A stretch of DNA of 64,000 nucleotides from an uncultured Candidatus Saccharibacteria bacterium (GTDB lineage: Bacteria; Patescibacteriota; Minisyncoccia; Minisyncoccales; MHMH01), in contig CAZMQW010000001.1 of NCBI GenBank assembly GCA_964568775.1, positions 719 to 64,718 on the forward strand, in the 5' to 3' direction. Made by a program: the position numbers and the translations under genes. Shown here piece after piece: positions 38,645 to 52,340 of the stretch. The notes under the pieces were generated by a model. It was given only the letters and a program-made list of their open reading frames with translations, did no database searches and was not told the origin of the DNA. Within the stretch, counting starts at the first letter, position 1. The number at the start of each line of letters is the position of its first letter.

Positions 38645-38715
38645 CGGGCTGTGGTATATTGGTATTATGCAGAGCTGGGGGCTCTGCGAACTGAGTTCAA
38701 TTCTCAGCAGCCCGA
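38645..38715 (+). tRNA. tRNA-Pro (anticodon GGG)
   Basis: Hand-folded. Acceptor CGGGCUG/CAGCCCG (C1-G72, A73), anticodon stem CAGAG/CUCUG with loop CUGGGGG, T arm CUGAG-UUCAAUU-CUCAG. No encoded CCA. Starts immediately after the rpmB stop. Confidence 0.8.
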
Positions 38716-38929: not shown

Positions 38930-39994
38930 TTAAAGATGCAAAACCTCAACCGTTTGCTTGATCAAAGAGAGTACCACGGCCGCAGCCAGCAAACTGTAGG
39001 AGGGAACGCCCTCATCGTCAGCCACGACCCAGGGCTTTTCCTTGACAGCAACCTTCTGGCCGTCCCATTGGTAGTAGTATTCGGGAGTGAGCTCGTAGTC
39101 GTCAACGTAAGTTTTGGCTAGGGTCTCCGGCACCGAATTTCTCAGGAAGATTTTGGGAATGCCGTAGAGAGAGGCGGCCTGCTGGATCAGCTCTTCGTCT
39201 TTGAGCAGCCTGGCTTTAATGGGGCCTATCCCCTTTTCGTCGCCTTCTTTTGGTTGAAGCTTGACGCTTTTGCACCGGGGATTGTCGCACAAAAGATAAA
39301 ATTCTTTTTTCTTTGCATCGTACTCCACTTTTGAAGTGGGCAATAATTTCAAATTCCTCGATGTCTGGCATTTAGGACAAACCCGACGGTATTTCATCCG
39401 CTCGTCAATAATCTTCTCCGGCACATTGAACAAGATGAAAACATCGGGGTCTTCGCGGTAGCCGATCAGGTCGCGGAAGAAAAGCGTAAAGTTTATCTGG
39501 TCCAAGCCCCGGGGGAAGCCGTCGATAAAAAGTGTTTTCTTTTTGCCCCGGCTTATTTGTCTTTTAGCCAGAACTAAAATCAAGTCGGTCGGGAGAAGTG
39601 GGGCTGAAGTGCTTCTTTTTTTCAAAAAAGAAAGCAGTTCTTCAACCGAATGTCCGCCCCGGTAATTCTTTTCCAAGAAAGTGATTAATTCTTTCTTCTT
39701 TTTGGCGTCTTTCAAATCCCGATCAATCTCTCTGATCATGTCACCAATGGAAAAATGTTCAACGTACTGGTGGCCGATGATTTCAGCGAACATCTTGGAA
39801 TAAGTCCCTTTGCCAGAATTCTTCTTGCCTAAAAGATAAGCGATGAAAGTGTTGCCTTTTTTGAAGTAGGCTCTCAGTTTTTTAATCTCCGGACCGGCCT
39901 TCAATTCAAAATACTGCCTTCTGCCCGCAGGGCTGTTCAAGTCAAACTTTTTCGTCACGCCTTTTACTTTAGTTCTAAAGACTGGGAACTGCAT
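38930..39994 (-). CDS. divergent adenylate-kinase-like NMP kinase with N- and C-terminal extensions
   Basis: 354 aa with P-loop LLGKKNSGKGTYSKMF, IDGFPRG and a LID-like CPKC...C....C segment. About 110 extra C-terminal residues. Confidence 0.6.
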   Translation of the reverse strand: MQFPVFRTKVKGVTKKFDLNSPAGRRQYFELKAGPEIKKLRAYFKKGNTFIAYLLGKKNSGKGTYSKMFAEIIGHQYVEHFSIGDMIREIDRDLKDAKKKKELITFLEKNYRGGHSVEELLSFLKKRSTSAPLLPTDLILVLAKRQISRGKKKTLFIDGFPRGLDQINFTLFFRDLIGYREDPDVFILFNVPEKIIDERMKYRRVCPKCQTSRNLKLLPTSKVEYDAKKKEFYLLCDNPRCKSVKLQPKEGDEKGIGPIKARLLKDEELIQQAASLYGIPKIFLRNSVPETLAKTYVDDYELTPEYYYQWDGQKVAVKEKPWVVADDEGVPSYSLLAAAVVLSLIKQTVEVLHL

Positions 39995-40882: not shown

Positions 40883-41038
40883 CTAGGCTTTGCCCATGAT
40901 GCGGAACATCTTGGTGCCGCATTTGGGGCATTTGCCGGTCATGGCTTTTCTTTTCACGCCGCCCTTGCCCTTCATGATTACTTCTTTAGCATCATCCATT
41001 TCTCTTTTAGCCTTACATTTGACACAATAACCTTCCAT
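40883..41038 (-). CDS. zinc-ribbon mini-protein (DUF5679-like)
   Basis: Hand-translated, 51 aa, not in the ORF track: MEGYCVKCKAKREMDDAKEVIMKGKGGVKRKAMTGKCPKCGTKMFRIMGKA*. Confidence 0.6.
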   Translation of the reverse strand: MEGYCVKCKAKREMDDAKEVIMKGKGGVKRKAMTGKCPKCGTKMFRIMGKA

Positions 41039-41143
41039 AATAAAAAATATGTTTTACTTAAAATTTTCCCAAATCGACCTTTAATTTAGTTTTCTATGTC
41101 CTTATTTTACCTTAATTTAAGCCAAAAAGCCAGTCAAGCCCCC

Positions 41144-41416
41144 TTAAGCGAATAAACTTAAAAATCCTTTTAAGCCAATCAAACCAGCAAAAATAAAAAA
41201 AACCAAAGGCGGAAAACTCATTGACAAGCTCAAAATCAGCAAAATGCCAACCATAATATCAAATAAACTACCAATATCCATTAAAAACATCAAAGCTTTC
41301 AAAAAAAGATAAACAGCCAAAGCAATCACCAAACCGTACGGCAAAGTCACCTGATAAGCCGCCCCCACTAAAAGAGCCGCTGCTAATAGATCAAAAACGC
41401 CTAAAATTTTTACCAT
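41144..41416 (-). CDS. small 3-TM membrane protein
   Basis: 90 aa, almost entirely hydrophobic helices. Confidence 0.5.
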   Translation of the reverse strand: MVKILGVFDLLAAALLVGAAYQVTLPYGLVIALAVYLFLKALMFLMDIGSLFDIMVGILLILSLSMSFPPLVFFIFAGLIGLKGFLSLFA

Positions 41417-41439: not shown

Positions 41440-42012
41440 TTATCCAAGTTTCTCTAAAACTTTAAAATCTTTCCTCAAGGTTTCTTTCATGTTGGAGTTG
41501 TAAGTAGCCACGGCGGGATGATAAAGAGGAATAATTTTTATACTTTGAAAGAGATTTTTAACTTCGAAAATCCTGCCGTGAATTTTACTTATTCCCTGAA
41601 CTTGGTTTTTTAATCCATATTTTTCCATTAGGTAGACTGTGGAAAAATTTCCTAACGTACAGATTATCTTCGGCCTTATAATTTCGATCTGTCTCTCCAG
41701 ATACGAAGCGCAAGCTTGAATTTCTTCTTTCTGGGGGTTGCGATTACCGGGCGGACGGCATTTAAGGATATTGCAAATATAAATATCTTTCCTTTTTATT
41801 TTTATTGAGTCTAAAAGCTCGTCTAAAATTTCTCCGGCCGCTCCGCAAAAAGGGCGACCAGTCCTGTCTTCATTAGCTCCCGGTGCTTCTCCTATAAACA
41901 TTATCTCAGCTTTATCGTCCCCTTCTCCGACTACTGGAAAATTCCTTGTTTTATAAAGAAGACATTTCCTGCAATCGGCAATTTCGGTTTTAATTTTTTC
42001 TAAATCACTCAT
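41440..42012 (-). CDS. family-4 uracil-DNA glycosylase (Fe-S type)
   Basis: CRKCLLYKTRNFPVVGEG.., IMFIGEAPG and HPAVATY. Confidence 0.8.
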   Translation of the reverse strand: MSDLEKIKTEIADCRKCLLYKTRNFPVVGEGDDKAEIMFIGEAPGANEDRTGRPFCGAAGEILDELLDSIKIKRKDIYICNILKCRPPGNRNPQKEEIQACASYLERQIEIIRPKIICTLGNFSTVYLMEKYGLKNQVQGISKIHGRIFEVKNLFQSIKIIPLYHPAVATYNSNMKETLRKDFKVLEKLG

Positions 42013-42035
42013 CTTAAAAATTTAAGTTCGCAGGT

Positions 42036-43424
42036 TCAGACCAGGCCCAGTATCATAGCTATTCCCAATCCTAACACGATCAGGCCGGAGATTAAATTCA
42101 GGTATCTTATATTTCTTACCTGCCAGCTTGAAATGTTTTCAACTCTTGACAGGCCTAAATAAATTATCAAAACCACGGCCAGCATTGGCAAGACAAATAT
42201 TAAATTATAAAACAGCAGCCAGGGCAGAGCTTTCAGTAGACCCAAAGGGCAAAGAATGCCTCCGCAGATAATATAGGGGCCGATGGTGCAGGGAAGCAAA
42301 AATATGGTCACGAAAGCTCCGACCGCAAAAGCACCCTTGGGACTGGTTATTCTTGCAATAACTTTGTCTACTTTCGGTGATATTTTGCAAACTGCCTTGG
42401 CCTGGAAAAAATCTTTTAATTTCAAACAGCCTAAAATTACGGCTCCGGCGCCTAAAATTTTATAAAGCCATAATCTAACGGCGGTTAAAACTTGAACGAG
42501 CTGGAATGATTTAATAATAATTAATCCATAAATTAAATACATAACGAAAACCGAAACAATGAAAGCTAGCCCAGCCAATAAAATATTCCTTTTTTTAGTC
42601 GGATTATAAGTCAGAATGGCGATAAGCATCAAAGTTAAAACCGCCAAGGCGCAAGGGTTGACGGCGTCTATGGCCGCCAGGGACAAAACCTTAGCCATGG
42701 TAAGTTTTAAGTCGGATTCAGCCAAGGGGGTTTCTTCCGTGGCCGTTTCTCCTTCCGAGGGCAAAACTTCCAAAGCGGGTCCATTCCACTGAAAGATCCA
42801 ATTGCCAATTGAAATTCCATTGTCAAATCCGACATATTTCCCAGAAAGAGGAATTTTAAAAGGTTTTATCTCCTGAAACTCAATGTCCTTTAAGACTTCA
42901 TTCAAATCATCTTTGACCAACAATTCTTTTAATAATTCACTGTCTCCACCTGGGCCAACTTTTATCAAAATTTTTCCTTGATACCAAATTTTTGGGAAAC
43001 CAGAAAGTGAAACAAGATTTAAATCGCTGAAATCAACAGAACTACCGTCTATTAAAGGGCATTTATTTAACTGAAATCCTTCAATCGTTTCTCTCGCTTC
43101 TTGAGGTATTGAAAAGCTGCCGGATAGACTCTGTTCTTTATTAAAAATTATCAAAGGAATCCCCAATCCAGAATTATATTCTTCATTATACCGATAAATT
43201 AAAGGAGCATTCTCTGTCTGTTGGTAAATTTCGTACTCAATCACAACAAAATTAGCGTATTCTCGGGGCAATTCTTCAAGCACGATAGGATCTGTTTCAG
43301 CGCAATGAGGACAACCAACGCCGGTAAAATAAACAGCGCAGACATAATCCTTTTGTGCTAAGACATTTTGCAAAGAAAAAAATAGCAGACCCAAAACAAA
43401 AATGGCGAAAATAAATTTCTTCAT
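42036..43424 (-). CDS. secreted thioredoxin-fold domain fused to a CcdA/DsbD-type transmembrane thiol-disulfide transporter
   Basis: Signal peptide MKKFIFAIFVLGLLFFSLQNVLAQ, CPHC motif, then a multi-TM C-terminal half with AIDAVNPCAL and LLPCTIGPY. Confidence 0.7.
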   Translation of the reverse strand: MKKFIFAIFVLGLLFFSLQNVLAQKDYVCAVYFTGVGCPHCAETDPIVLEELPREYANFVVIEYEIYQQTENAPLIYRYNEEYNSGLGIPLIIFNKEQSLSGSFSIPQEARETIEGFQLNKCPLIDGSSVDFSDLNLVSLSGFPKIWYQGKILIKVGPGGDSELLKELLVKDDLNEVLKDIEFQEIKPFKIPLSGKYVGFDNGISIGNWIFQWNGPALEVLPSEGETATEETPLAESDLKLTMAKVLSLAAIDAVNPCALAVLTLMLIAILTYNPTKKRNILLAGLAFIVSVFVMYLIYGLIIIKSFQLVQVLTAVRLWLYKILGAGAVILGCLKLKDFFQAKAVCKISPKVDKVIARITSPKGAFAVGAFVTIFLLPCTIGPYIICGGILCPLGLLKALPWLLFYNLIFVLPMLAVVLIIYLGLSRVENISSWQVRNIRYLNLISGLIVLGLGIAMILGLV

Positions 43425-43487
43425 AATTTACTCAACCTTAATTCAAGATTATATAATTTATAGTCTAACAAGCCAAGGTTTCGCCGG

Positions 43488-43775
43488 TTATTGACGAGGC
43501 ATGGTTCTTATCTTTATGGCCTTACCCTCTGTTAGGGCTTGGGCTATTTTTTTATGAGCCGAGGTAAGAATTCTCTGAAAGGTGCTCTGGGAAATATTCA
43601 TTTTTTTAGCGGCCTCAGCCTGATTCAAATCTTTCAAATCACAAAGTCTCACAGCCTCTAATTCATCAGCTGCCAAATCTACCTCTTCTAATTGAAGAAG
43701 AGGTACTGCCCTAGGTTTAAAATAAGTCACGTTTGGATCAAAGAGAATTTTTCTTTGTTTTGGAGGTCTTGCCAT
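43488..43775 (-). CDS. DUF134/UPF0251 putative DNA-binding protein
   Basis: MARPPKQRKILFDPNVTYFKPRAVP...DELEAVRLCDLKDLNQAEAAKKMNISQSTFQRIL. The start overlaps the upstream gene by 49 nt. Confidence 0.7.
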   Translation of the reverse strand: MARPPKQRKILFDPNVTYFKPRAVPLLQLEEVDLAADELEAVRLCDLKDLNQAEAAKKMNISQSTFQRILTSAHKKIAQALTEGKAIKIRTMPRQ

Positions 43776-44620
43776 ATTTCTTTAATTTCTTTTTTAGCTT
43801 TCAGGTTGGTCTCTAAAATCGGGGTCAAATCGGCAATTGCTTTGAATATTTTTTTGTCATAAGATATTTTACCCAAAAATTTTGGACCTGACCATTCTTT
43901 TATTTTTTGGCTTAGCTGAGGATTAATGTCCCATTTATTTATTACCAAGCCCCAGGGGATTTTAAAATGATTGACTACTTCTAAAACTCTTTTTAAATCA
44001 GAGAATCCGGAGGGAGTGGGCTCGGTGATTAAAACTGTAAAATCGGCTCCCTGCAAGGAAGCGATAACCGGGCACCCGGTACCGGGAGCGGAATCAATAA
44101 TCATCAAACTGTGTTTCAGTTTCTCTGCTTCTTTTTTTATTTCTGCCACCACTTTCCCGGAGCCTGTATTTCCCGGAAAAAGATTCCCCGAAACCAAGGA
44201 GAAGCCGTGCCTGTTTTTTTTAATCTTTATCTCCCCGTTCTGAACCGTCTTTAATTTTATTGCTTTTTGCGGACAAATAACTTCGCAAGCGCCGCATCCT
44301 TCACATAGGAATGGATTTAATTTCGGTTTGCCACCGGCCATTTTTATTGCTGAAAACCGACAATTTCTGGCGCAAAGACCGCAACCATCGCATTTTTTGT
44401 AGTCAATCTCTGGCAGGGCGGCAGCGAGAACCGGAATGGTTTTGTCCCATTTTTTAACTCCACCCAACCAAATCGCTAAGTTGGGTGTATCGGCGTCACA
44501 ATCCACTGCCACTGTTTTTTTAGTTTTAGCAGAAAGCACGGCTAAGGCCGAAGCTAGCATTGATTTTCCTACTCCGCCCTTTCCTGATGCAATTACCAAT
44601 TTAAATTTTTTATCTTGCAT
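43727..44620 (-). CDS. MinD/ParA-type P-loop ATPase with inserted 2x[4Fe-4S] ferredoxin domain (COG1149-like), copy 2
   Basis: ASGKGGVGKS, CDGCGLCARNC, CEGCGACEVICP and DSAPGTGCPV. I chose the ATG at 44620. Confidence 0.8.
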   Translation of the reverse strand: MQDKKFKLVIASGKGGVGKSMLASALAVLSAKTKKTVAVDCDADTPNLAIWLGGVKKWDKTIPVLAAALPEIDYKKCDGCGLCARNCRFSAIKMAGGKPKLNPFLCEGCGACEVICPQKAIKLKTVQNGEIKIKKNRHGFSLVSGNLFPGNTGSGKVVAEIKKEAEKLKHSLMIIDSAPGTGCPVIASLQGADFTVLITEPTPSGFSDLKRVLEVVNHFKIPWGLVINKWDINPQLSQKIKEWSGPKFLGKISYDKKIFKAIADLTPILETNLKAKKEIKEIWQDLQNKEKFSLIQT

Positions 44621-44628
44621 TGCGCCGT

Positions 44629-45222
44629 TTATTTTACAAACAATCCGCAAAAACAATGGCCATCTCTTTCAATTTCCTCTCGATGCCATTGGCAGGGGCA
44701 AATTTTAGGACGATCTTCTTCTTGATTCTCACTTATCCTCCGACAAGGACAATACCTGGCTCCCCATTTCTTCTCGTTGGCCAAAAGGCCCGCTACTAAT
44801 TTTTCCACTGCTTTCCTGTCCGGATTCAGCTTAAATCCATTTTTCTGAGCATAACTTTCGTAGTTTTTGATTACTTCTTCAATTTTTTCCATAACTTGAT
44901 TAATAATTTTTTGATTTTCTTCCAACCATTGCCTTATTATTTGCTCGGGCCTTGCCCCCAAAAATCCGCTGATCGGCCTTCCCCATTCAAAAAGAATGAC
45001 GGTTGGAATCTGTTCGACCTTATATTTTTGAGCAGTAAGAGGAGCTTCGTCTACGTTGACTTTAGCCAAAATCAACTTATCCTCATGATCTTCAACTACT
45101 TTTTCCAAAATAGGGGCCAGCGCAGAACAAGGCATGCACCACTGCGCCCAAAAGTCAATTAGAATCGGCTTATCCGCTGCTTGAATTTCTTTCTCAAAAT
45201 TTTCATCAGTAAGAGTAAGCAT
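44629..45222 (-). CDS. thioredoxin fused to a ferredoxin:thioredoxin-reductase catalytic-subunit-like domain
   Basis: N-terminal Trx fold with WCMPC. C-terminal CPC-x14-CPC-x12-CFC (ARYCPCRR...KICPCQWH...GHCFCGLF). Confidence 0.7.
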   Translation of the reverse strand: MLTLTDENFEKEIQAADKPILIDFWAQWCMPCSALAPILEKVVEDHEDKLILAKVNVDEAPLTAQKYKVEQIPTVILFEWGRPISGFLGARPEQIIRQWLEENQKIINQVMEKIEEVIKNYESYAQKNGFKLNPDRKAVEKLVAGLLANEKKWGARYCPCRRISENQEEDRPKICPCQWHREEIERDGHCFCGLFVK

Positions 45223-45232
45223 TTTTATTTAT

Positions 45233-46426
45233 TCACTCCGAACATAGCTTTGTTCTGGTTATTCGGGCTATCTCTGGATTTAAAGCTCTTAAACGACCTT
45301 TATCCAAATTGTGGATATTATTCTCCCCGCAGGCGCCAGCAATCATTTTTATCTCTTCGGTGCAATTTTTAATGTAATCGGCAATATCCCGGGAAGCCTC
45401 TTCAACATTTAGATTTTTCCTTAGTTCTGGGTCTTGGGTAGCAATGCCTTTCGGACATTTTCCTAAATAACATTGCTGGCAATAAGTGCAGCCCATGGCA
45501 ATTAATAATGGGAAAGCAACAAATACTGCATCAGCTCCCAAAGCCAAGGCTTTAGCGAAATCTGCTCCCTGATTGAGGCCTCCACCAATCCATAATTCCT
45601 GTTTAGCTTTAATTTTATCCAAAACCTCTCTGGCTTTTACCAAGACCGCCAAAGTAGGGATGCCGACCTCATTCAGCATTACCTCCGGCGCAGCTCCGGT
45701 TCCCCCTTCCAAACCATCAATGGCAATAATATCGGGATTCGCTTTTACCGCGAATTTTACATCGCTCTCAATATCTCCGGGTCCTAACTTTAAAATAATC
45801 GGCACTCCTCCGGTCAGATTTCTCAACCAATAGATTCTCTTTTTCAGATCGTCAACATTCTTAATGTCTGAATGATAGGCTGGAGAATGAACGTCTTTGC
45901 CTTTTTCAATTTTTCTCACTTCGGCAATTTCATCAGTTATTTTTTCCTTAGGGAGAAGACCTCCCTGGCCAGGCTTTGCTCCTTGGCCAATTTTTATTTC
46001 AATGGCATCTGCCTTTCTCAAAACGTCTTCTGTAATGCCGAACCTGCCGGTGGAATACTGGATAATGAGTTTTTCTGAAAATTCTCTCTCTTCCGGCAGC
46101 AGCCCTCCTTCACCGGTATTACCCATGGTCCCAGCCATAGCCGAAGCTTTAGCCAGGGCGATTTTAGCTTCTTTGCTTAACGCTCCGAAGCTCATTGCTC
46201 CAATTACTATTGGAGTTTTTAATTCAATCGGCCTTTTACTGTTTTTGCCAATCACGGTTCTGGAGCTTATTTCCTCTTTAAAATAATCCACCGGCCTCTT
46301 GGTTAATTGGGCAGGCACAAAAACCAAATCATTAAAGCTAATTTTATCGGCTTTATCGGACCGGCCGCCGCTTACTGGAACACCTTTAACTCTCTTTTGA
46401 ATTTCTTTAATCCAATTTCTGTCCAT
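45233..46426 (-). CDS. glutamate-synthase-related FMN-binding (GltB domain-2-like) protein
   Basis: 397 aa with ..IKIGQGAKPGQGGLLP.., DGLEGGTGAAP and CTYCQQCYLGKCPKGIATQDPELR. Confidence 0.75.
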   Translation of the reverse strand: MDRNWIKEIQKRVKGVPVSGGRSDKADKISFNDLVFVPAQLTKRPVDYFKEEISSRTVIGKNSKRPIELKTPIVIGAMSFGALSKEAKIALAKASAMAGTMGNTGEGGLLPEEREFSEKLIIQYSTGRFGITEDVLRKADAIEIKIGQGAKPGQGGLLPKEKITDEIAEVRKIEKGKDVHSPAYHSDIKNVDDLKKRIYWLRNLTGGVPIILKLGPGDIESDVKFAVKANPDIIAIDGLEGGTGAAPEVMLNEVGIPTLAVLVKAREVLDKIKAKQELWIGGGLNQGADFAKALALGADAVFVAFPLLIAMGCTYCQQCYLGKCPKGIATQDPELRKNLNVEEASRDIADYIKNCTEEIKMIAGACGENNIHNLDKGRLRALNPEIARITRTKLCSE

Positions 46427-46431
46427 AATTC

Positions 46432-47253
46432 CTAAAAATTAAAATTTATTAATTGACCCTTTGAGTAGGCTTCGACTAATTCCCGGGAATAAGGAATTTC
46501 CTGCTCTATTTTTGTTTTGAATTTTTTAATGACGGGGTAAATCTTTCTTTTGTCGCCTAAATCGGCTTGGTTCAAAATTACTTTAGTTGGTACATTTAAT
46601 TTCCGGCATAAATCTAAAATTAAATTTAAATCGTAGGCGCCCATCGGCGTAGGTTCGGTAACCGCGTAAGCCGAGTCGCAATTGATCAAGGCGGAGACAA
46701 CCGGGCAATGAATACCGGCTGCTGTATCGAATAAAACAAAATCTGCTTTAATCTTCCTAGCCAAATCCAAGGCGAATTTTTTAGTTTGAGCCACCACCGG
46801 GCCGGTCTCTTCAAGCCCGGCCTTGGCCATTCCCGTTATCAGCCAATAGTTCTTATTTATTTTATTAACGAAGACCTGGCCCGTTTCTTCTTTTTTGGGC
46901 TTAATTGCCTTATGCGGACAAATAATCCAACAAGCCCCGCAACCAGAACATAAATCCTTAAGAAAGACGGGGTATTGTCCCGGTGTCTGAAAAATGGCAT
47001 TGCTCCGGCAAGTTTTGGCGCATAAACCACATTTTTTGCATTTTTCTTCAATCAACTCTGGAAATTCGGCATAAATTTTCTCCATCGGTTTTTTTAATTT
47101 TTCTCCCAGGAGCAGATAATCATTAGGGCATTCTACGTCGCAATCACAAAGAATAACCTTCTTGTCTTTTTTAACAAACTGATTAGCAAACAAGATAGCA
47201 ATAGTGCTTTTGCCGGTGCCGCCTTTTCCCCCGCTAATGGCGATTTTTTCCAT
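46432..47253 (-). CDS. MinD/ParA-type P-loop ATPase with inserted 2x[4Fe-4S] ferredoxin domain, copy 1
   Basis: SGGKGGTGKS, CKKCGLCAKTC, CSGCGACWIICP and DTAAGIHCPV. Confidence 0.8.
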   Translation of the reverse strand: MEKIAISGGKGGTGKSTIAILFANQFVKKDKKVILCDCDVECPNDYLLLGEKLKKPMEKIYAEFPELIEEKCKKCGLCAKTCRSNAIFQTPGQYPVFLKDLCSGCGACWIICPHKAIKPKKEETGQVFVNKINKNYWLITGMAKAGLEETGPVVAQTKKFALDLARKIKADFVLFDTAAGIHCPVVSALINCDSAYAVTEPTPMGAYDLNLILDLCRKLNVPTKVILNQADLGDKRKIYPVIKKFKTKIEQEIPYSRELVEAYSKGQLINFNF

Positions 47254-47277
47254 ATTTTTTCAAAAAATATTCTTTTT

Positions 47278-47598
47278 TTACAATTTTTTTAGTTTTTCCT
47301 CTTGGAAACTTTTGACATTCTCAGCAATATTTTTTTCAAGAGCCTCATAAATTTTAATTCCGAAATCTTTGAATTTTTCAAATGCTCTCTGCCCCAAATC
47401 AAAACAAATTACCGCACTTACGTCCAGTTTATTTAAAAATTCCGGCGGCAGTTCTTTCCGGCCGGCAATTTCAGGATTCGGGAAAACATTAAAATCTTTG
47501 GTATCAGTATTATAAATCAGATAATTTTTAGCTTGGCCGAAATGAAATGTCACCAAATCATCTAAATTTTCTCCGTCGGTCGGCAGAGCAATTTTCAT
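47278..47598 (-). CDS. NifX/NifB-C-terminal-like (dinitrogenase FeMo-cofactor-binding family) protein
   Basis: 106 aa: MKIALPTDGENLDDLVTFHFGQAKNYLIY.. ..VSAVICFDLGQRAFEKFKDFGIKIY. Confidence 0.65.
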   Translation of the reverse strand: MKIALPTDGENLDDLVTFHFGQAKNYLIYNTDTKDFNVFPNPEIAGRKELPPEFLNKLDVSAVICFDLGQRAFEKFKDFGIKIYEALEKNIAENVKSFQEEKLKKL

Positions 47599-48824
47599 GC
47601 TGAGATTTCTTTAATTAGGTCCCCGAGTTTTTTATTGGTCAACTCTATTCCGATATTGAAACTCTCCAAATTGGCCCTGGCGTTAGAACCAATCTCTCTG
47701 GTAATAATCTTATCGGCTGAAACTGCTTTGGCAAACCTTGCCCCGTGAGCATTTTCCGCTTCAAAGAAAGAATTTTCAATTATTTCTTTTTGTAAAATTT
47801 TTCCATTTTTTATGTCTATCACTAAATATTGAGCGACGCCGAAAATATCGGCAATTTCGTTTTTCTTCCCGTCGAAAGGAACTATGATTCTTTCGCCTAA
47901 TTTTTTGGGTCCGATCTGCTCGAAGCCCTTCAAGGCATAAATCATCTTGCCGAAACCTGAAACAATAGTGCTGCTTTTCATTTCGTGAGATTCTATAGAA
48001 ATGACAATATATTTTAATCCAGGGATATTCCGAAGAAGTCTCTCTTCTAAAGTTTTGGTTATCTTACTGACTTCATCAACCCTTAATTCCGGGTCTAATT
48101 GAATTTTAAGTTCGGCGAAGTTGGCAGCGCCAATCTTTCTAGTTTTTAATCCTGAGATGTTGATTTTGTGGGCGGAGCAAATTTTTCTGATTCTCTCTTC
48201 TATGTTTTTGTTAGAAACATCTAAAAGAGAATCGGTGATCTCTTTGCCGATGCTGAACGACTGCCAAATCACATAAAAGCCAATTAAAATCGCAATAACG
48301 GCATCGGCATAAATGAAATATCTTATCAAAACCAACCCGATTAAAACTCCCGCAGAAGAGATAACATCGGCTCGGGAGTGCTCGGCATCAGCCACCAGGG
48401 AAAGGCTTTCATGCTTCCGACCATAATAAAATTTTAATCTGGCCATTACCTCGTTAACCACAGTGGAAACGACCATCAAGCCTATAGCCCAAAGAGTAAA
48501 AGTGACCGGTTCCAGTTTCAGAAAGCGGCCTATTCCTTCGTAAATAATCCAAACTGCCGAAATAGTTAAAAGCAAAGCCACCGTTAAGCCGGCCAGGGTT
48601 TCTGCCCGATAAAAGCCATAAGGATGTTTTTCATCAACTGGTTTTTTAGCTATCTTAATTCCTAAAAAAGTGACGAAAGAAGAAAAAACATCTAAGCCGG
48701 AATGGATGGCATCGGCAACCAAAGCTACGCTGCCAACCGTAAATCCGGCTATCAACTTAAAGACAGCCAAAATAAAATTAACGACAGTACTAATAATAGA
48801 AATTTTCTCTTGGTTCATTTTCAT
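47595..48824 (-). CDS. cation diffusion facilitator transporter fused to a C-terminal NifX-like domain
   Basis: CDF core (..VALVADAIHSGLDVFSS.. HPYGFYRAETL.. ADAEHSRADV..). The last ~110 aa (..IIVPFDG..FGVAQYLVIDIKNGK.. ..ADKIITREIGSNARANLESFNI) are NifX-like. Confidence 0.7.
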   Translation of the reverse strand: MKMNQEKISIISTVVNFILAVFKLIAGFTVGSVALVADAIHSGLDVFSSFVTFLGIKIAKKPVDEKHPYGFYRAETLAGLTVALLLTISAVWIIYEGIGRFLKLEPVTFTLWAIGLMVVSTVVNEVMARLKFYYGRKHESLSLVADAEHSRADVISSAGVLIGLVLIRYFIYADAVIAILIGFYVIWQSFSIGKEITDSLLDVSNKNIEERIRKICSAHKINISGLKTRKIGAANFAELKIQLDPELRVDEVSKITKTLEERLLRNIPGLKYIVISIESHEMKSSTIVSGFGKMIYALKGFEQIGPKKLGERIIVPFDGKKNEIADIFGVAQYLVIDIKNGKILQKEIIENSFFEAENAHGARFAKAVSADKIITREIGSNARANLESFNIGIELTNKKLGDLIKEISA

Positions 48825-49261
48825 CTTCCTCTAAATCTATTCGGGCCCATTCCCCGTCCTCTGCCACCGCCCCTTTCCCTGCCTCTTCCGGAAAAACCAA
48901 GGCCAAAGTGGCCAGGAGTAGTTGGGGTTTCTATTTCTTTTAATTCGCCTTTATTATATTTATCAATAACCTCTCTGACGGTTAAGTCAAAAACCCCGGG
49001 ATATACTTTAACTCCGGACATTCGTAAAACCGAAAAAGCGTTAGGCCCAAAATTCCCGCAAATAACTGCTTCCGCTTTTTCAAAGACAACAATTTGGGCG
49101 GCAGCCACTCCTGCTCCCCTGCCAGTTTGCAAAGCCGTATTAGGCACTGCTTTAAATTCTTCGGTCTTTTTATCGATAATTAAAAAATAAGCGCAGCGGC
49201 CAAAAACTGATGACACTTGAGAGTCTAAATCGGGGGCATTGGCGCAAATACAAATCTTCAT
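48821..49261 (-). CDS. NifX-like protein with C-terminal Arg/Gly-rich tail
   Basis: MKICICANAPDLDSQVSSVFGRCAYFLIID.. GAGVAAAQ.. ICGNFGPNAFSVL.., then the tail GRGRERGGGRGRGMGPNRFRGR. The ATG is at 49261. Confidence 0.7.
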   Translation of the reverse strand: MKICICANAPDLDSQVSSVFGRCAYFLIIDKKTEEFKAVPNTALQTGRGAGVAAAQIVVFEKAEAVICGNFGPNAFSVLRMSGVKVYPGVFDLTVREVIDKYNKGELKEIETPTTPGHFGLGFSGRGRERGGGRGRGMGPNRFRGR

Positions 49262-49269
49262 ATTATAAA

Positions 49270-49482
49270 TTATCGGGCCCGGGTCATTGGTTGACCGCAT
49301 TTGGGGCAACGATGCTCATAGCAGGTAATTCCTCGGCGATGAGGGATCCTAGTGCCACAGCCCAGACAGATACACTCGCCGCCGGGTCCCAAACCAAAAC
49401 CACCTGGCTGACGGCCTTGTCCTCCCCCGCCTAACCTTCGGCCGGTTTTTGATCCTTGATTGAATCTTTTTCCGTTTGGCAT
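49270..49482 (-). CDS. Gly-rich N-terminus plus Cys/His zinc-ribbon mini-protein
   Basis: 70 aa: MPNGKRFNQGSKTGRRLGGGGQGRQPGGFGLGPGG, then CICLGCG..H...CYEHRCPKCG. Confidence 0.6.
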   Translation of the reverse strand: MPNGKRFNQGSKTGRRLGGGGQGRQPGGFGLGPGGECICLGCGTRIPHRRGITCYEHRCPKCGQPMTRAR

Positions 49483-49483
49483 A

Positions 49484-49756
49484 TTATTTTTTTGCTCCCA
49501 GTTCTTTTATCCTATTCTCAATATTTTTCATTTCTTCTCTCAAGGCTTGCAAATCTTCATTCAGTATTGCTTTTTCCTCTTTTGGGGCGGGAGGTTGGAA
49601 TGAATAATCCGGCCCCCAGCCAAACTGCCCCCAGCCCCTGCCAAAGCCTCTCCCCCAGCCGCGACGCCGACCCAAACCGGCTCCGCAGGGACCTCTGCCC
49701 CAACCGGCGCCGGAACCACCGCCCCAAACAGGGCCTCTTCCGTCAAATCCTGGCAT
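49484..49756 (-). CDS. DUF5320-like protein (Gly/Arg/Trp-rich N-terminus plus C-terminal coiled coil)
   Basis: MPGFDGRGPVWGGGSGAGWGRGPCGAGLGRRRGWGRGFGRGWGQFGWGP..., then KEEKAILNEDLQALREEMKNIENRIKELGAKK. Confidence 0.65.
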   Translation of the reverse strand: MPGFDGRGPVWGGGSGAGWGRGPCGAGLGRRRGWGRGFGRGWGQFGWGPDYSFQPPAPKEEKAILNEDLQALREEMKNIENRIKELGAKK

Positions 49757-49806
49757 AGTTTTTTTGCTTTTAAAATTAATTGAAAATTGCGACCTTTCCT
49801 ATTTTG

Positions 49807-49835
49807 AGTATATACCCATAATAACGCCCTGTCAA
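49807..49835 (-). promoter_or_regulatory. promoter of the 12-gene operon
   Basis: Minus strand TTGACA-N17-TATACT, about 50 nt upstream of the ATG at 49756. Confidence 0.55.
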
Positions 49836-49846
49836 GTGGATAAATC

Positions 49847-49875
49847 TTGACGACCTATTAAATAAAATATATAAT
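49847..49875 (+). promoter_or_regulatory. divergent promoter of the CxxC mini-protein gene
   Basis: TTGACG-N17-TATAAT. The ~90-nt leader contains the hairpin AAAGCGGC...GTCGCTTT. Confidence 0.55.
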
Positions 49876-49965
49876 GATTACAGGCCTTGTAAGTCGTATC
49901 TTAAAGTAAATTTTTAAGCAAAGCGGCTTATAAGTTTAAAGGTCGCTTTAATTTGTAAATTCATT

Positions 49966-50154
49966 ATGATGTTCAAAAAATCAGACGATGCTCCCAGGAA
50001 GGATTTTCCTCCTCGGGAGATGGTGAAAGGCAATTGGAAGTGCGCCGAATGCGGCAAAGAAATAACCGAAATGCCGTTTGAGCCTTCACCCGACAGACCA
50101 ATTTATTGCCGAGACTGCTGGTCAAAACGAAGAAGTCAAAGATTCGGACGATAA
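49966..50154 (+). CDS. CxxC-x18-CxxC zinc-ribbon protein
   Basis: 62 aa: ..WKCAECGKEITEMPFEPSPDRPIYCRDCWSKRR.. Confidence 0.65.
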   Translation: MMFKKSDDAPRKDFPPREMVKGNWKCAECGKEITEMPFEPSPDRPIYCRDCWSKRRSQRFGR

Positions 50155-52268: not shown

Positions 52269-52340
52269 CTCCGGGGACAGGATTCGAACCTGTAACCATC
52301 TCCTTAACAGGGAGCCGCTCTACCGTTGAGCTACCCCGGA
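52269..52340 (-). tRNA. tRNA-Asn (anticodon GUU)
   Basis: Hand-folded. Acceptor UCCGGGG/CCCCGGA with G73, D arm GCUC-AACGGUA-GAGC, anticodon loop CUGUUAA, T arm ACAGG-UUCGAAU-CCUGU. No encoded CCA. Confidence 0.85.

What the first reader, a model, noticed from the sequence alone, without database searches (positions are those of the whole stretch)
41440..49835. Twelve-gene operon linking NifX-like carriers, MinD-ferredoxin ATPases, a CDF transporter, DUF134, DUF5320/Gly-Arg proteins and thiol-redox fusions: candidate uncharacterised metallocofactor/redox system
Seen in the sequence. One TTGACA-N17-TATACT promoter at 49807-49835 is followed by twelve co-directional genes:
1. DUF5320-like protein
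2. Gly-rich zinc-ribbon protein
3. NifX-like protein with an RGG tail
4. CDF transporter fused to a NifX-like domain
5. NifX-like protein
6. MinD-2x[4Fe-4S] ATPase
7. GltS-like FMN protein
8. Trx-FTR fusion
9. second MinD-2x[4Fe-4S] ATPase
10. DUF134 protein
11. secreted-Trx/CcdA fusion
12. Fe-S UDG

The junctions between them, in order, are: +1, +8, -4, -4, +24, +5, +10, +8, -49, +63 and +23 nt.

From established knowledge:
- The NifX/NafY/NifB-C family binds FeMo-co or Fe-S precursors.
- COG1149-type MinD proteins resemble the NifH/Mrp/NBP35 cluster-carrier ATPases.
- CDF proteins move Fe, Zn, Mn or Co.
- DUF134, NifX-like and MinD-Fd genes co-occur in anaerobes without an assigned function.
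- There is no nifHDK/ENB here, so this is not nitrogen fixation.

By inference, this is a dedicated pathway that takes a transported metal, assembles or stores a metal-sulfur species on ATPase scaffolds and small carriers, and couples it to ferredoxin/thiol redox chemistry. It appears to be under a DUF134 regulator.

That about 13% of this window goes to this cluster in a minimal genome argues it is important.
Basis: partly seen in the sequence, partly recalled or inferred. Interest (0 to 1): 0.8.

Follow-up and report, generated by a model that had tools for sequence, protein, structure and literature searches.

The report
DUF134-controlled ORP/IssA-like iron-sulfur operon
A tiny-genome (Patescibacteria) bacterium carries a tightly packed operon for handling iron-sulfur or metal species; it is related to the poorly understood "orange protein" complex and the IssA iron-sulfur store of anaerobes, and it sits behind a 20-bp palindromic switch that is shared with DPANN archaea.

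Summary
All twelve minus-strand genes, all eleven junction distances and the TTGACA-N17-TATACT promoter are present as described.

This is not one fixed 12-gene pathway. In 86 related loci a core recurs:
- DUF5320
- a small Gly/Arg-plus-Cys6 ribbon protein
- a NifX-like protein with a cationic Gly/Arg tail
- a CDF transporter fused to a NifX-like domain
- two paralogous MinD-2x[4Fe-4S] ATPases
- DUF134

The GltS-like gene (4 of 86 loci), Trx-FTR (6), UDG (19) and the Trx/CcdA-like gene (27) are interchangeable cargo, mostly in a variable slot between the two ATPase genes.

These are the Desulfovibrio ORP (orange protein) complex, whose Clostridial counterpart is DUF134-NifX-MinD-MinD-MrpORP, and the IssA thioferrate store.

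New here is a 20-bp palindrome, TTATGRRTATATAYYCATAA, that overlaps the -10 element. It is the only such site in the window. It marks these clusters in bacteria and in archaea, and it does so in a scan that was not anchored on DUF134. It is probably the DUF134 operator.

Function is inferred as iron/iron-sulfur buffering and trafficking with thiol-redox support. This is not proven.

The parts
49830..49835 (-). -35 hexamer TTGACA of the operon promoter
   Evidence: Consensus scan. TTGACA is conserved at the same spacing upstream of the palindrome in most bacterial relatives.
49802..49821 (.). 20-bp palindromic operator TTATGGGTATATACTCAAAA (consensus TTATGRRTATATAYYCATAA). It contains the -10 hexamer TATACT (49807-49812).
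   Evidence: It is the only site in the 64 kb at 3 or fewer mismatches, against 0.01 expected. There are 67 sites in 1.28 Mb of related loci, nearly all just upstream of the first cluster gene. In a motif-only scan of metagenome contigs, 63 of 80 hits are directly followed by a DUF5320, DUF134, g2 or NifX gene.
49790..49797 (-). Conserved leader element AAAGGTCG, function unknown
   Evidence: Present in 24 of 58 leaders, always 31-54 nt before the start codon. No Rfam match.
49484..49756 (-). Gene 1: DUF5320 protein. The N-terminal 55 aa are Gly/Arg/Trp-rich (pI 11.6) and the C-terminus is predicted as a coiled coil.
   Evidence: Pfam PF17253, 3.9e-15. Composition. Present in 53 of 86 loci and adjacent to DUF134 in 28. 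Fused to DUF134 in some lineages.
49270..49482 (-). Gene 2: small protein with a Gly/Arg-rich N-terminus and a Cys6/His ribbon (GRQPGGFGLGPGGECxCxxCG..H..RGxxC..CPKCG)
   Evidence: 66-78% identical in relatives. The same module is fused to the C-terminus of DUF134 in DPANN archaea and a Clostridia genome. In three loci it is fused to the CDF protein in place of the NifX-like domain.
48821..49261 (-). Gene 3: NifX-like (IPR003731) protein with a 38-42 aa cationic Gly/Arg tail (pI about 12). IssA/IssX-like.
   Evidence: Pfam Nitro_FeMo-Co, 3.4e-20. Best solved relatives are MTH1175 (7e-19) and the orange protein 2WFB (4e-16). The tail is conserved in 27 or more loci, including Micrarchaeota.
47595..48824 (-). 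[quoted passage not shown]
   Evidence: Pfam Cation_efflux 1.5e-50 and ZT_dimer. The best NCBIfam equivalogs are MamM, MamB and FieF. The C-terminal domain is weak here but gets a Pfam hit in an orthologue. Metal-site motifs.
47278..47598 (-). Gene 5: second NifX-like protein, acidic, without a tail
   Evidence: Pfam 2.6e-17. Solved relatives. Present in only some relatives.
46432..47253 (-). Gene 6: MinD-type ATPase A with an inserted 2x[4Fe-4S] ferredoxin domain (Orp3/Orp4-like)
   Evidence: Pfam CbiA plus Fer4. The top 120 of 1628 homologue clusters are 70-100% identical. All eight cluster cysteines, a GTHCPV cysteine and CDVECPN are conserved. Full-length homology to the paired ATPases of a MrpORP cluster.
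45233..46426 (-). Gene 7: GltS-like FMN/Fe-S oxidoreductase domain protein (accessory, variable slot)
   Evidence: Pfam Glu_synthase, 6e-115. Found in only 4 of 86 loci, but again paired with Trx-FTR inside a DUF5320...DUF134 cluster in L029, L052, L046 and L214.
44629..45222 (-). Gene 8: thioredoxin fused to the ferredoxin:thioredoxin reductase catalytic domain (accessory)
   Evidence: Pfam Thioredoxin 4e-28 and FeThRed_B 6e-23. The CPC..CPC..CFC cysteines are present in the sequence. The fusion is common, with at least 474 clusters.
43727..44620 (-). Gene 9: MinD-type ATPase B with an inserted ferredoxin domain, paralogue of gene 6
   Evidence: Pfam. About 36% identical to gene 6 and 70-76% to its orthologues. 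Conserved cysteines.
43488..43775 (-). Gene 10: DUF134, a sigma-region-4/DeoR-like HTH protein and the probable repressor that binds the palindrome
   Evidence: Pfam 1e-24. AlphaFold2 model with pLDDT 88.5; Foldseek matches sigma-4 and the DeoR DNA-binding domain. It is the only DNA-binding family common to all operator-bearing loci.
42036..43424 (-). Gene 11: signal peptide plus thioredoxin-fold (CPHC) domain, a beta-rich middle domain and a six-TM CcdA/DsbD-like domain
   Evidence: No Pfam hit. Homologues carry SfLAP (PF11139) and JGI names them CcdA/thioredoxin. Profile against PDB: ScsC/DsbA-like 1e-3, CcdA 0.16. Structure model. Follows DUF134 in many loci.
41440..42012 (-). Gene 12: family-4 (Fe-S) uracil-DNA glycosylase, a recurrent passenger
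   Evidence: NCBIfam Arch_udg 252 bits against a cut-off of 250. Present in 19 of 86 loci, usually inside the slot between the two MinD genes.

Best explanation
**What it is.** This is a single sigma-70-type transcription unit. It carries an ORP/IssA-type module for handling iron-sulfur or iron species, together with thiol-redox and Fe-S-client passenger genes.

**Regulation.**
- DUF134 is an HTH protein with a sigma-region-4/DeoR-like fold.
- It most likely binds as a dimer to the 20-bp palindrome that contains the -10 hexamer, and represses the operon that encodes it.
- DUF5320 and the Cys6-ribbon protein are probably its sensing partners. Both carry the conserved N-terminal peptide MPxxDxTGPxGxGPxTGRGxGxC, and both occur fused to DUF134 in other lineages.

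**Proposed mechanism once the operon is on.**
- The tailed NifX-like protein, and possibly the other Gly/Arg-rich proteins, hold an anionic Fe-S species. This would resemble IssA holding thioferrate.
- The two MinD-ferredoxin ATPases work as a heterodimer with the NifX-like carriers, as Orp3/Orp4 do with Orp8, to load, unload or reduce that species.
- The CDF-NifX fusion exports excess metal.
- The passenger genes supply thiol reducing power inside and outside the cell (GltS-like oxidoreductase to FTR to Trx to the CcdA-like protein), or are Fe-S clients (UDG, FTR, GltS-like).

**Shown here:** gene content, homologies, conservation, the operator and the fusions.

**Inferred:** repression by DUF134, the identity of the bound species, the roles of the ATPases and the direction of transport.
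For: **Operon and operator**
- Tight junctions and a single strong promoter.
- The palindrome is the only such site in the window.
- It sits upstream of the first cluster gene in 67 sites across related loci.
- In a motif-only scan, 63 of 80 hits are directly followed by a cluster gene.
- In bacteria it overlaps the -10 element. In DPANN archaea it follows a TTTAAATA box.
- DUF134 is the only common DNA-binding gene (L072 and L058 lack DUF5320).
- DUF134 has a sigma-4/DeoR-like fold.

**Core conservation**
-.

**Fusions linking the parts**
- DUF134 is fused to Nitro_FeMo-Co in 10 of 70 sampled representatives, to DUF5320 in 4 of 70, and to zinc ribbons.
- The g2 ribbon is fused to DUF134, or to the CDF protein in place of the NifX-like domain.

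**ORP link**
- Peptoclostridium has DUF134-NifX-MinD-MinD-MrpORP.
- The ATPases are homologous over their full length, E 1e-29 to 1e-54.
- Orp3-Orp4-Orp8 co-purify and receive Fe-S clusters from MrpORP (PMC6345978).

**IssA link**
- The domain is closest to MTH1175 and ORP among solved structures.
- A conserved cationic Gly/Arg/aromatic tail with pI about 12 matches the published description (PMC5524996).
- That paper reports that thiols mobilise thioferrate in vitro, which gives a rationale for the Trx genes.

**Iron theme**
- The CDF protein scores best against MamM, MamB and FieF.
- In a Pacearchaeote, a second operator copy precedes an EncFtn-like ferritin gene.
- Slot genes include a metal ABC transporter, a CobW-plus-FeS chaperone and AhpD-like proteins.
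- The Chloroflexota cluster ends in DUF59 and peroxiredoxin.
- Trx-FTR lies near NifS-NifU in L213.
Against: - No experiment bears on this organism, so every functional step is inferred.
- The physiological role of the ORP complex is itself unresolved. A cell-division role has been proposed (PMC8359166).
- The CDF metal site is HD-HD, which is typical of zinc transporters.
- The tail is 38-42 aa, against 70 aa in IssA. Placement in the IssA clade was not tested by phylogeny.
- MrpORP is absent from this cluster.
- DUF134 binding to the palindrome is deduced from co-occurrence only.
- Gly/Arg-rich tails also occur on the regulators themselves, so they may serve protein, nucleic-acid or ligand contacts other than storage.
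- A promoter-like site before gene 11 (43476..43448) means that one transcript for all twelve genes is unproven.
Confidence: 0.5

Rival explanations
1. It is a general metal (zinc or manganese) and oxidative-stress regulon, analogous to Zur/PerR regulons. DUF134 would control efflux (CDF), uptake (ABC-3), thiol antioxidants (Trx, FTR, AhpD-like, CcdA-like) and DNA repair (UDG). The NifX-like and MinD proteins would be Fe-S redox components rather than a store or assembly line.
For: - The CDF protein has an HD-HD metal site.
- Slot genes include ABC_tran plus ABC-3, a CobW-type GTPase, CMD/AhpD-like proteins, Trx and UDG.
- A peroxiredoxin lies in the Chloroflexota cluster.
- Cys-rich ribbons are attached to the regulator and to the transporter.
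- The N-terminal domain of gene 11 resembles ScsC copper-resistance proteins.
Against: - The invariant core is NifX-like carriers plus two ferredoxin-bearing ATPases, not antioxidant enzymes.
- The CDF protein scores far higher against MamM/MamB/FieF than against ZitB.
- The Clostridial cluster ends in the Fe-S carrier MrpORP.
- No catalase, SOD or peroxidase is in the window cluster.
Confidence: 0.2
2. It is the first reader's version: all twelve genes form one dedicated pathway that builds or stores an uncharacterised metallocofactor. GltS-like, Trx-FTR, CcdA-like and UDG would be obligatory steps.
For: - Tight junctions and one strong promoter.
- GltS-like plus Trx-FTR recur together inside DUF5320...DUF134 clusters in several lineages (L029, L052, L046, L214).
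- UDG and gene 11 recur.
Against: - GltS-like is in 4 of 86 loci and FTR in 6 of 86.
- Full clusters exist with nothing between the two ATPase genes (L014, L016, L034, L037, L048, L070).
- The slot content is interchangeable.
- Trx-FTR also occurs away from the cluster (L213, L215).
Confidence: 0.1
3. It has a cell-division or positioning role, as originally proposed for the Desulfovibrio ORP complex. The MinD-like ATPases would act as spatial regulators whose activity is gated by Fe-S redox state.
For: - The ATPases belong to the MinD/ParA superfamily.
- The literature reports morphological defects when orp expression is lost, and polar localisation of MrpORP (PMC8359166, PMC6345978).
Against: - Nothing in the conserved neighbourhood relates to division. 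The partners are a metal transporter, NifX-like carriers and a ferritin-like gene.
- The ORP authors themselves call the division role a hypothesis.
- The ferredoxin insert and conserved extra cysteines point to electron or cluster chemistry.
Confidence: 0.1
4. It handles molybdenum/tungsten-copper thiometallates, since the founding orange protein binds a Mo-Cu-S cluster.
For: Gene 3 is homologous to the orange protein 2WFB at 4e-16. The orange protein's cluster is described in PMC6345978.
Against: - No molybdate or tungstate transporter, molybdopterin gene or Mo enzyme was seen in the window or in the related loci.
- The MrpORP NifX-like domain binds an Fe-S cluster instead (PMC6345978).
- The tail matches IssA-type proteins.
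Confidence: 0.05

Closest known systems
[quoted passage not shown]
   Same: - Two paralogous MinD-type ATPases, each with two [4Fe-4S] motifs, are encoded next to a single-domain NifX-like protein.
- Gene 3 matches the solved orange protein at 4e-16.
- A Clostridial cluster, DUF134-NifX-MinD-MinD-MrpORP, bridges the two arrangements.
- Both are specific to anaerobes.
   Different: - There is no MrpORP and no recognised Orp5/Orp7 counterpart here.
- Regulation is by a sigma-70-type promoter plus DUF134 and a palindrome, not by sigma-54/OrpR/IHF.
- This cluster adds a CDF-NifX transporter, DUF5320, a Cys6-ribbon protein and a cationic tail on the NifX-like protein.
- The host is a Patescibacterium.
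IssA / IssX iron-sulfur storage proteins (Pyrococcus furiosus PF2025 and relatives)
   Same: - An IPR003731 domain is followed by a proline-containing linker and an unstructured cationic Gly/Arg/aromatic tail with pI about 12.
- The closest solved domain is MTH1175, which was used to model IssA (PMC5524996).
   Different: - The tail is about 40 aa rather than 70 aa.
- The gene is embedded in an operon with ATPases and a transporter.
- Thioferrate binding, nanoparticle formation and clade membership are untested.
- Similar Gly/Arg segments also sit on DUF5320, on gene 2 and on some DUF134 proteins.
Fe/Zn-type cation diffusion facilitators (FieF/YiiP, MamB, MamM)
   Same: Cation_efflux plus the ZT_dimer architecture. 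These are the highest NCBIfam scores, 150-153 bits.
   Different: - All scores are far below the equivalog cut-offs.
- The protein has an HD-HD site.
- An extra C-terminal NifX-like domain is present. In some relatives it is replaced by the Cys6 ribbon.
Ferredoxin:thioredoxin reductase / thioredoxin and CcdA-DsbD/ScsBC-type transmembrane thiol relays
   Same: - Gene 8 has a bona fide Trx domain and the six-cysteine FTR catalytic motif.
- Gene 11 has an extracytoplasmic CPHC Trx-fold domain and a six-TM domain with two Pro-Cys motifs.
   Different: - FTR is fused to its substrate Trx and has no variable subunit.
- CHC is replaced by CFC.
- Gene 11 is not recognised by the DsbD/CcdA profiles, and it carries an extra beta-rich domain.

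Membership tests
ORP complex gene cluster | Two paralogous MinD/ParA-type ATPases, each with two CxxCxxCxxxC [4Fe-4S] motifs | tested here: met
   Genes 6 and 9: Pfam CbiA plus Fer4. The cysteines are 97-100% conserved in A. The second motif is 100% conserved in B, and the first is partly degenerate in B.
ORP complex gene cluster | Adjacent single-domain NifX-like (IPR003731) protein homologous to the orange protein | tested here: met
   Gene 3 against 2WFB, 4.4e-16. Gene 5 is also NifX-like.
ORP complex gene cluster | MrpORP (Mrp/NBP35 P-loop domain fused to a NifX-like domain) encoded in the cluster | tested here: not met
   There are only partial hits to NF041136, 31-47 bits against a cut-off of 450. 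MrpORP is present in the Clostridial DUF134 cluster but not in the window cluster.
ORP complex gene cluster | Sigma-54 promoter with OrpR enhancer-binding protein and IHF | tested here: not met
   The promoter is sigma-70-type TTGACA-17-TATACT with a DUF134-associated palindrome. No EBP gene is in the cluster.
ORP complex gene cluster | Physical complex of the ATPases with the NifX-like protein | not testable with these tools
   Shown only for Desulfovibrio (PMC6345978).
IssA / IssX | N-terminal IPR003731 (Nitro_FeMo-Co) globular domain | tested here: met
   Pfam 3.4e-20.
IssA / IssX | Unstructured C-terminal tail rich in Gly, Arg and aromatics, with high pI | tested here: met
   Window tail: 42 aa with 13 Gly, 8 Arg and 3 Phe, pI 11.8. 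Orthologues have tails of 24-41 aa with 40-63% Gly+Arg. These are shorter than the 70 aa of IssA.
IssA / IssX | Placement in the IssA or IssX clade of the IPR003731 tree | not tested
IssA / IssX | Binds thioferrate and forms nanoparticles | not testable with these tools
   This needs anaerobic biochemistry with XAS or EPR.
NifX/NafY nitrogenase cofactor carriers | Encoded alongside nifHDK/nifENB | tested here: not met
   No nitrogenase family appeared among the window ORFs scanned or in the related loci.
Cation diffusion facilitator, Fe/Zn subgroup | Cation_efflux TM domain plus the cytoplasmic ZT_dimer domain | tested here: met
   1.5e-50 and 7.6e-9. TIGR01297, 232 bits against a cut-off of 82.
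Cation diffusion facilitator, Fe/Zn subgroup | Metal specificity read from the TM2/TM5 quartet | tested here: inconclusive
   The quartet is HD-HD (ADAIHSGLD / ADAEHSRAD), which is zinc-like. The best profile scores are to MamM, MamB and FieF.
Ferredoxin:thioredoxin reductase catalytic subunit | FeThRed_B domain with CPC...CPC...CxC cysteines | tested here: met
   Pfam 5.6e-23. The sequence CPC-x14-CPC-x12-CFC is seen directly.
CcdA/DsbD transmembrane thiol-disulfide transporters | Six TM helices with one conserved cysteine in each half, next to proline | tested here: met
   AlphaFold2 model with six long helices. NPC (C258) and LLPCTxGP (C379) are invariant in 34 homologues.
CcdA/DsbD transmembrane thiol-disulfide transporters | Recognised by family profiles or structures | tested here: inconclusive
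   No Pfam or NCBIfam hit. Homologues hit SfLAP. CcdA 5VKV scores E 0.16. Foldseek finds only the Trx domain.
Family-4 uracil-DNA glycosylase | Passes the equivalog profile | tested here: met
   NF040953, 252.1 bits against a cut-off of 250. TIGR00758, 225.7 bits against 125.3.
DUF134 (UPF0251) as a DNA-binding regulator | HTH fold and a cognate conserved operator | tested here: met
   Sigma-4/DeoR-like model. The palindrome co-occurs with DUF134 in anchored and unanchored samples. Direct binding was not tested.

The most novel reading that the evidence does not exclude
DUF134, DUF5320 and the Cys6-ribbon module together form a previously undescribed switch that senses iron-sulfur species (or FeS(aq)/redox state). 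Its 20-bp operator works both inside bacterial sigma-70 promoters and downstream of archaeal TATA boxes.

The whole regulon, with its ORP/IssA-like cargo, has been exchanged between Patescibacteria and DPANN archaea. DUF134 is 58-65% identical across the two domains. It would serve as the main iron-sulfur buffering system of these ultra-small, host-dependent cells.
Probability: 0.3. Interest if true: 0.8.

Novelty: new variant of a known kind. Interest (0 to 1): 0.62.

Why it matters
Patescibacteria and DPANN archaea have minimal genomes, and almost nothing is known about how they manage iron and Fe-S clusters. This analysis contributes four things:

- **A testable regulatory unit.** One protein family, one 20-bp site and one operon, for a set of domains of unknown function (DUF134, DUF5320, COG1149-type MinD-ferredoxin ATPases) that are widespread in anaerobes.
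- **A link between two partly characterised systems.** ORP and IssA have so far been studied separately.
- **A separation of core from cargo.** Seven core genes are distinguished from interchangeable passenger genes.
- **A tractable host.** The cultured Minisyncoccus archaeiphilus carries the minimal DUF5320-DUF134 unit with the operator.

If the Fe-S buffering model holds, it would describe a ferritin-independent iron-sulfur store and relay. If the operator really functions in both domains, it would be a rare case of a regulon that is portable between bacteria and archaea.

Tried and rejected
- **Nitrogen fixation or FeMo-co maturation.** Rejected. No nif genes are in the window or the related loci.
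- **Known RNA element in the leader.** Rfam gave no credible match for the leader at E ≤ 1 (only snoR9, 13.9 bits against a gathering score of 90), and across the whole window only one tRNA passed the gathering thresholds.
- **Broad DUF134 alignments for locus retrieval.** Two attempts failed for lack of a conserved stretch. A five-sequence alignment worked, but it biased the sample towards one DUF134 subfamily (58% identity or more). The motif-only metagenome scan was run as an unbiased control.
- **Literature.** Searches for DUF134, DUF5320, UPF0251, COG1149/1433/1342 and "inserted ferredoxin domain" found nothing on function. The founding ORP paper (PMC3133258) is not held, so the statement that Orp3 and Orp4 are COG1149-type MinD ATPases rests on later papers and on my own knowledge.
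- **Gene 11.** Pfam and NCBIfam gave nothing. Foldseek recognised only its thioredoxin domain.
- **Solved structures.** None exists for the MinD-ferredoxin family or for DUF134.
- **A 423-aa protein in L007.** I considered it a gene 11 homologue. It is not (tblastn).
- **A terminator-like hairpin at 48913..48901.** It lies inside the tail-coding part of gene 3, so I took it as coding sequence.
- **Co-directionality as operon evidence.** Discounted, because nearly the whole window is on the minus strand.

Full report
**1. What is in the sequence**

Twelve ORFs lie head to tail on the minus strand between 41440 and 49756. Independent gene callers made the same choices on two metagenome contigs that carry the identical locus.

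The promoter TTGACA-17-TATACT at 49835..49807 is an 11/12 match. A second 11/12 match on the other strand (49847-49875) faces a small treble-clef zinc-finger gene at 49966-50154. The intergenic region therefore holds two back-to-back promoters.

Two cautions apply. Nearly every long ORF of the 64-kb window is on the minus strand, so co-directionality adds little. No terminator-like site marks the 3' end, and two further small genes follow in the same direction (a 90-aa membrane protein at 41144-41416 and a DUF5679 gene at 40883-41038).

**2. Domain checks**

Pfam and NCBIfam confirm the following:
- DUF5320
- two NifX-like proteins
- a CDF transporter
- two MinD-type ATPases, each with two Fer4 motifs
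- a Glu_synthase FMN domain protein
- a Trx-FeThRed_B fusion
- DUF134
- a family-4 UDG

Three calls needed more work.

- **CDF C-terminus.** It scores below threshold for Nitro_FeMo-Co. An orthologue passes, and a profile built from the loci labels it NifX-like in about 30 loci.
- **Gene 2.** It has no family, but it is 66-78% identical in relatives and belongs to a sharply conserved module.
- **Gene 11.** It has no profile hit. Its homologues carry SfLAP, and JGI names them CcdA/thioredoxin. A profile of 34 homologues weakly matches ScsC/DsbA-like proteins (1e-3) and CcdA (0.16). An AlphaFold2 model (pLDDT 80) shows a thioredoxin fold, a beta-rich middle domain and six long TM helices. CPHC, NPC and LLPCTxGP are invariant.

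**3. Source and relatives**

The best homologues of the ATPase are named Patescibacteria or Parcubacteria, and the top 120 clusters are 70-100% identical. The rest of the window is housekeeping: GatA, MreB, tRNA synthetases, MurA, RpoD, DnaG and a ribosomal protein cluster.

**4. Neighbourhood conservation**

I read neighbourhoods of ATPase and gene 11 homologues. I then fetched 80 genome loci anchored on DUF134 and labelled their ORFs with profiles derived from the window proteins. Three arrangements recur.

- **Class I (Parcubacteria-type, like the window).** DUF5320, g2, NifX with tail, CDF-NifX, sometimes a second NifX, MinD-A, a variable slot, MinD-B, DUF134, sometimes gene 11.
- **Class II.** Only DUF5320-DUF134, often followed by gene 11. 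This occurs in many Patescibacteria and DPANN archaea, including the cultured Minisyncoccus archaeiphilus.
- **Class III (Woese-, Aenigm- and Micrarchaeota).** A DUF134-ribbon fusion, tandem NifX, MinD-A, CDF-NifX, MinD-B.

Presence across the 86 loci:

| Gene family | Loci with it (of 86) |
|---|---|
| DUF5320 | 53 |
| NifX-like | 39 |
| CDF | 34 |
| MinD pair | 33 |
| Gene 11 | 27 |
| UDG | 19 |
| FTR | 6 |
| GltS-like | 4 |

Six full clusters have nothing between the two ATPase genes. In the others, the slot holds:

| Slot gene | Loci |
|---|---|
| UDG | 11 |
| ABC_tran plus ABC-3 | 9 |
| Trx or Trx-FTR | 7 |
| CMD/AhpD-like | 6 |
| GDH | 4 |
| MBL | 3 |
| Gene 11 | 3 |
| GltS-like | 2 |
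| CobW-plus-FeS GTPase | 1 |

GltS-like and Trx-FTR are therefore accessory. They do recur as a pair inside such clusters in other lineages (L029, L046, L052, L214). Trx-FTR is also found elsewhere, once next to UDG and near NifS-NifU.

**5. The operator**

Aligning the regions upstream of DUF5320 genes exposed a 20-bp palindrome, TTATGRRTATATAYYCATAA.

- In the window it lies at 49802-49821 with one mismatch. It contains the -10 hexamer and is the only site in 64 kb at up to three mismatches, against 0.01 expected.
- In 1.28 Mb of related loci there are 67 sites, nearly all immediately upstream of the first gene of the cluster.

Three promoter-operator architectures occur:
- TTGACA-N11-palindrome, with the palindrome's TATAYT as the -10 element.
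- TTGACA-N17-TATAAT overlapping the left arm of the palindrome.
- In archaeal loci, TTTAAATA-N3/4-palindrome.

Extra copies precede an EncFtn-like ferritin gene in a Pacearchaeote, a ThiI-gene 11 pair, and DUF134 itself.

Those loci were chosen by DUF134, so I ran an unanchored control. An exact-pattern scan of metagenome contigs returned 80 readable stretches. Of these, 63 have a DUF5320, DUF134, g2 or NifX gene directly downstream, and 58 contain DUF134. The nine with no family member are mostly very short contigs or have the site within about 60 nt of a contig end.

DUF134 is the only DNA-binding family common to all arrangements. Its model (pLDDT 88.5) superposes on sigma-70 region 4 and on the DeoR DNA-binding domain. 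An operator over the -10 element or transcription start implies repression and autoregulation. That last step is inference.

**6. Fusions that tie the parts together**

- Of 70 sampled DUF134 representatives, 10 carry a NifX-like domain, 4 carry DUF5320 and several carry zinc ribbons.
- Many end in Gly/Arg-rich tails.
- The g2 module occurs alone, at the C-terminus of DUF134, or at the C-terminus of the CDF protein in place of the NifX-like domain.
- DUF5320, g2 and the DUF134 fusion linkers share the peptide MPxxDxTGPxGxGPxTGRGxGxC.

The NifX-like, ribbon and DUF5320 modules thus look like interchangeable partners of both the regulator and the transporter.

**7. Closest known systems**

*ORP.*
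- Gene 3 matches the solved orange protein at 4e-16 and MTH1175 at 7e-19.
- In Desulfovibrio, two ferredoxin-motif proteins (Orp3, Orp4) co-purify with the NifX-like Orp8 and are matured by MrpORP (PMC6345978).
- Expression there is under sigma-54/OrpR at low redox potential, and the function is still unclear (PMC8359166).
- In Peptoclostridium acidaminophilum the RefSeq annotation reads DUF134, NifB/NifX family, ATP-binding, ATP-binding, MrpORP. Those ATPases are full-length homologues of genes 6 and 9.
- A Chloroflexota plasmid has DUF5320 and an HTH gene divergent from NifX-MinD-MinD-DUF59-peroxiredoxin.

*IssA.*
- The published definition is an IPR003731 domain plus an unstructured cationic tail rich in Gly, Arg and aromatics (Trp), which binds anionic thioferrate. 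An uncharacterised mesophilic IssX clade is also described (PMC5524996).
- Gene 3's tail has pI 11.8, with 13 Gly and 8 Arg in 42 residues. Equivalent tails are conserved in 27 or more loci, including Micrarchaeota.
- IssA-clade proteins rise in Methanococcus voltae grown on pyrite (PMC8516115, PMC9431491).

**8. Mechanism**

The most likely reading is a DUF134-repressed module that buffers and traffics iron-sulfur (or iron) species.
- Carriers with cationic tails hold an anionic Fe-S species.
- A MinD-ferredoxin heterodimer loads, unloads or reduces it. Both paralogues conserve a GTxCPV cysteine and a CDxx(C)PN motif besides the ferredoxin cysteines.
- A CDF-NifX fusion exports excess metal.
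- Slot genes add thiol reducing power (GltS-like to FTR to Trx to the CcdA-like protein) and Fe-S clients.

I put this at about 0.5. The regulatory architecture and the homology to ORP are much firmer, at about 0.85 each.

The main rival is a zinc/manganese and oxidative-stress regulon. It is supported by the HD-HD site of the CDF protein, the ABC-3 and CobW genes, and the antioxidant-type passengers.

**9. Verdict**

The cluster is a new variant of a known, partly characterised kind (ORP/IssA-type), not a categorically new system. What is added here:
- the definition of the core genes,
- the variable slot,
- the domain-swap evidence,
- a cross-domain operator that makes DUF134 and its partners directly testable.

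Noticed in passing
window 49790-49797 (-): A conserved leader element, AAAGG(T/C)C(G/A), occurs in 24 of 58 leaders. It is always 31-54 nt before the start codon, and an A/T-rich spacer without a Shine-Dalgarno sequence follows it. Loci with GGAGG next to the start lack it. No Rfam match.
   Followed up: partly
window 49847-50154 (+): A divergent 62-aa treble-clef zinc-finger gene (Pfam zf_Tbcl_2, 3.5e-14) has its own TTGACG-17-TATAAT promoter, back to back with the operon promoter. Gene callers on the identical metagenome contigs did not call it.
   Followed up: partly
window 40883-41416 (-): A 90-aa membrane protein and a 51-aa DUF5679 zinc-ribbon protein follow the cluster with no terminator between. 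The same pair follows the gene 11 homologue in L009, and DUF5679 follows it in L029 and L035. The transcript may therefore extend past 41440.
   Followed up: partly
window 43448-43476 (-): A promoter-like site, TTGGCT-17-TATAAT, lies in the 63-nt gap before gene 11. It is not conserved, because gene 11 overlaps DUF134 in L009. It could give gene 11 and UDG an independent transcript.
   Followed up: partly
L071-L090 compared with bacterial loci: DUF134 proteins of DPANN archaea are 58-65% identical to the Patescibacterial one, and the same palindrome sits after archaeal TATA boxes. This suggests transfer of the module between domains. Some contigs labelled Bathyarchaeia or Gammaproteobacteria carry bacterial CPR-type promoters and may be mis-binned.
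   Followed up: partly
L076 9279-9543: In a Pacearchaeote a second operator copy precedes an EncFtn-like ferritin gene (Pfam 3.9e-28), which lies between DUF5320 and DUF134.
   Followed up: partly
L052 4288-4387: The leader upstream of DUF134 in this locus consists of three tandem copies of a repeat of about 38 nt (AAGAACCCGCAAAGCAGAACCTTGATTGCTTCGCAATT).
   Followed up: no
L092 5176-5592: In a Chloroflexota plasmid the regulator next to DUF5320 is not DUF134. It is a different HTH protein (probably PadR-like) with its own Gly/Arg-rich N-terminal tail. This hints that such tails are a shared feature of regulators of these clusters.
   Followed up: no
window 38645-38715 (+): ARAGORN calls a tRNA-Pro(GGG) here, on the opposite strand to almost all genes. 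Rfam at gathering score reports only the tRNA-Asn at 52269-52340.
   Followed up: no
window 38930-39994 (-): A 354-aa protein has only a partial adenylate-kinase match (residues 130-216). This is much longer than canonical Adk. It is conserved next to a ComEC-like metallo-beta-lactamase gene in L009.
   Followed up: no
window 15089-16321 (-) and 61931-63544 (-): Two large ORFs, of 410 and 537 aa, have no Pfam hit at 1e-5.
   Followed up: no
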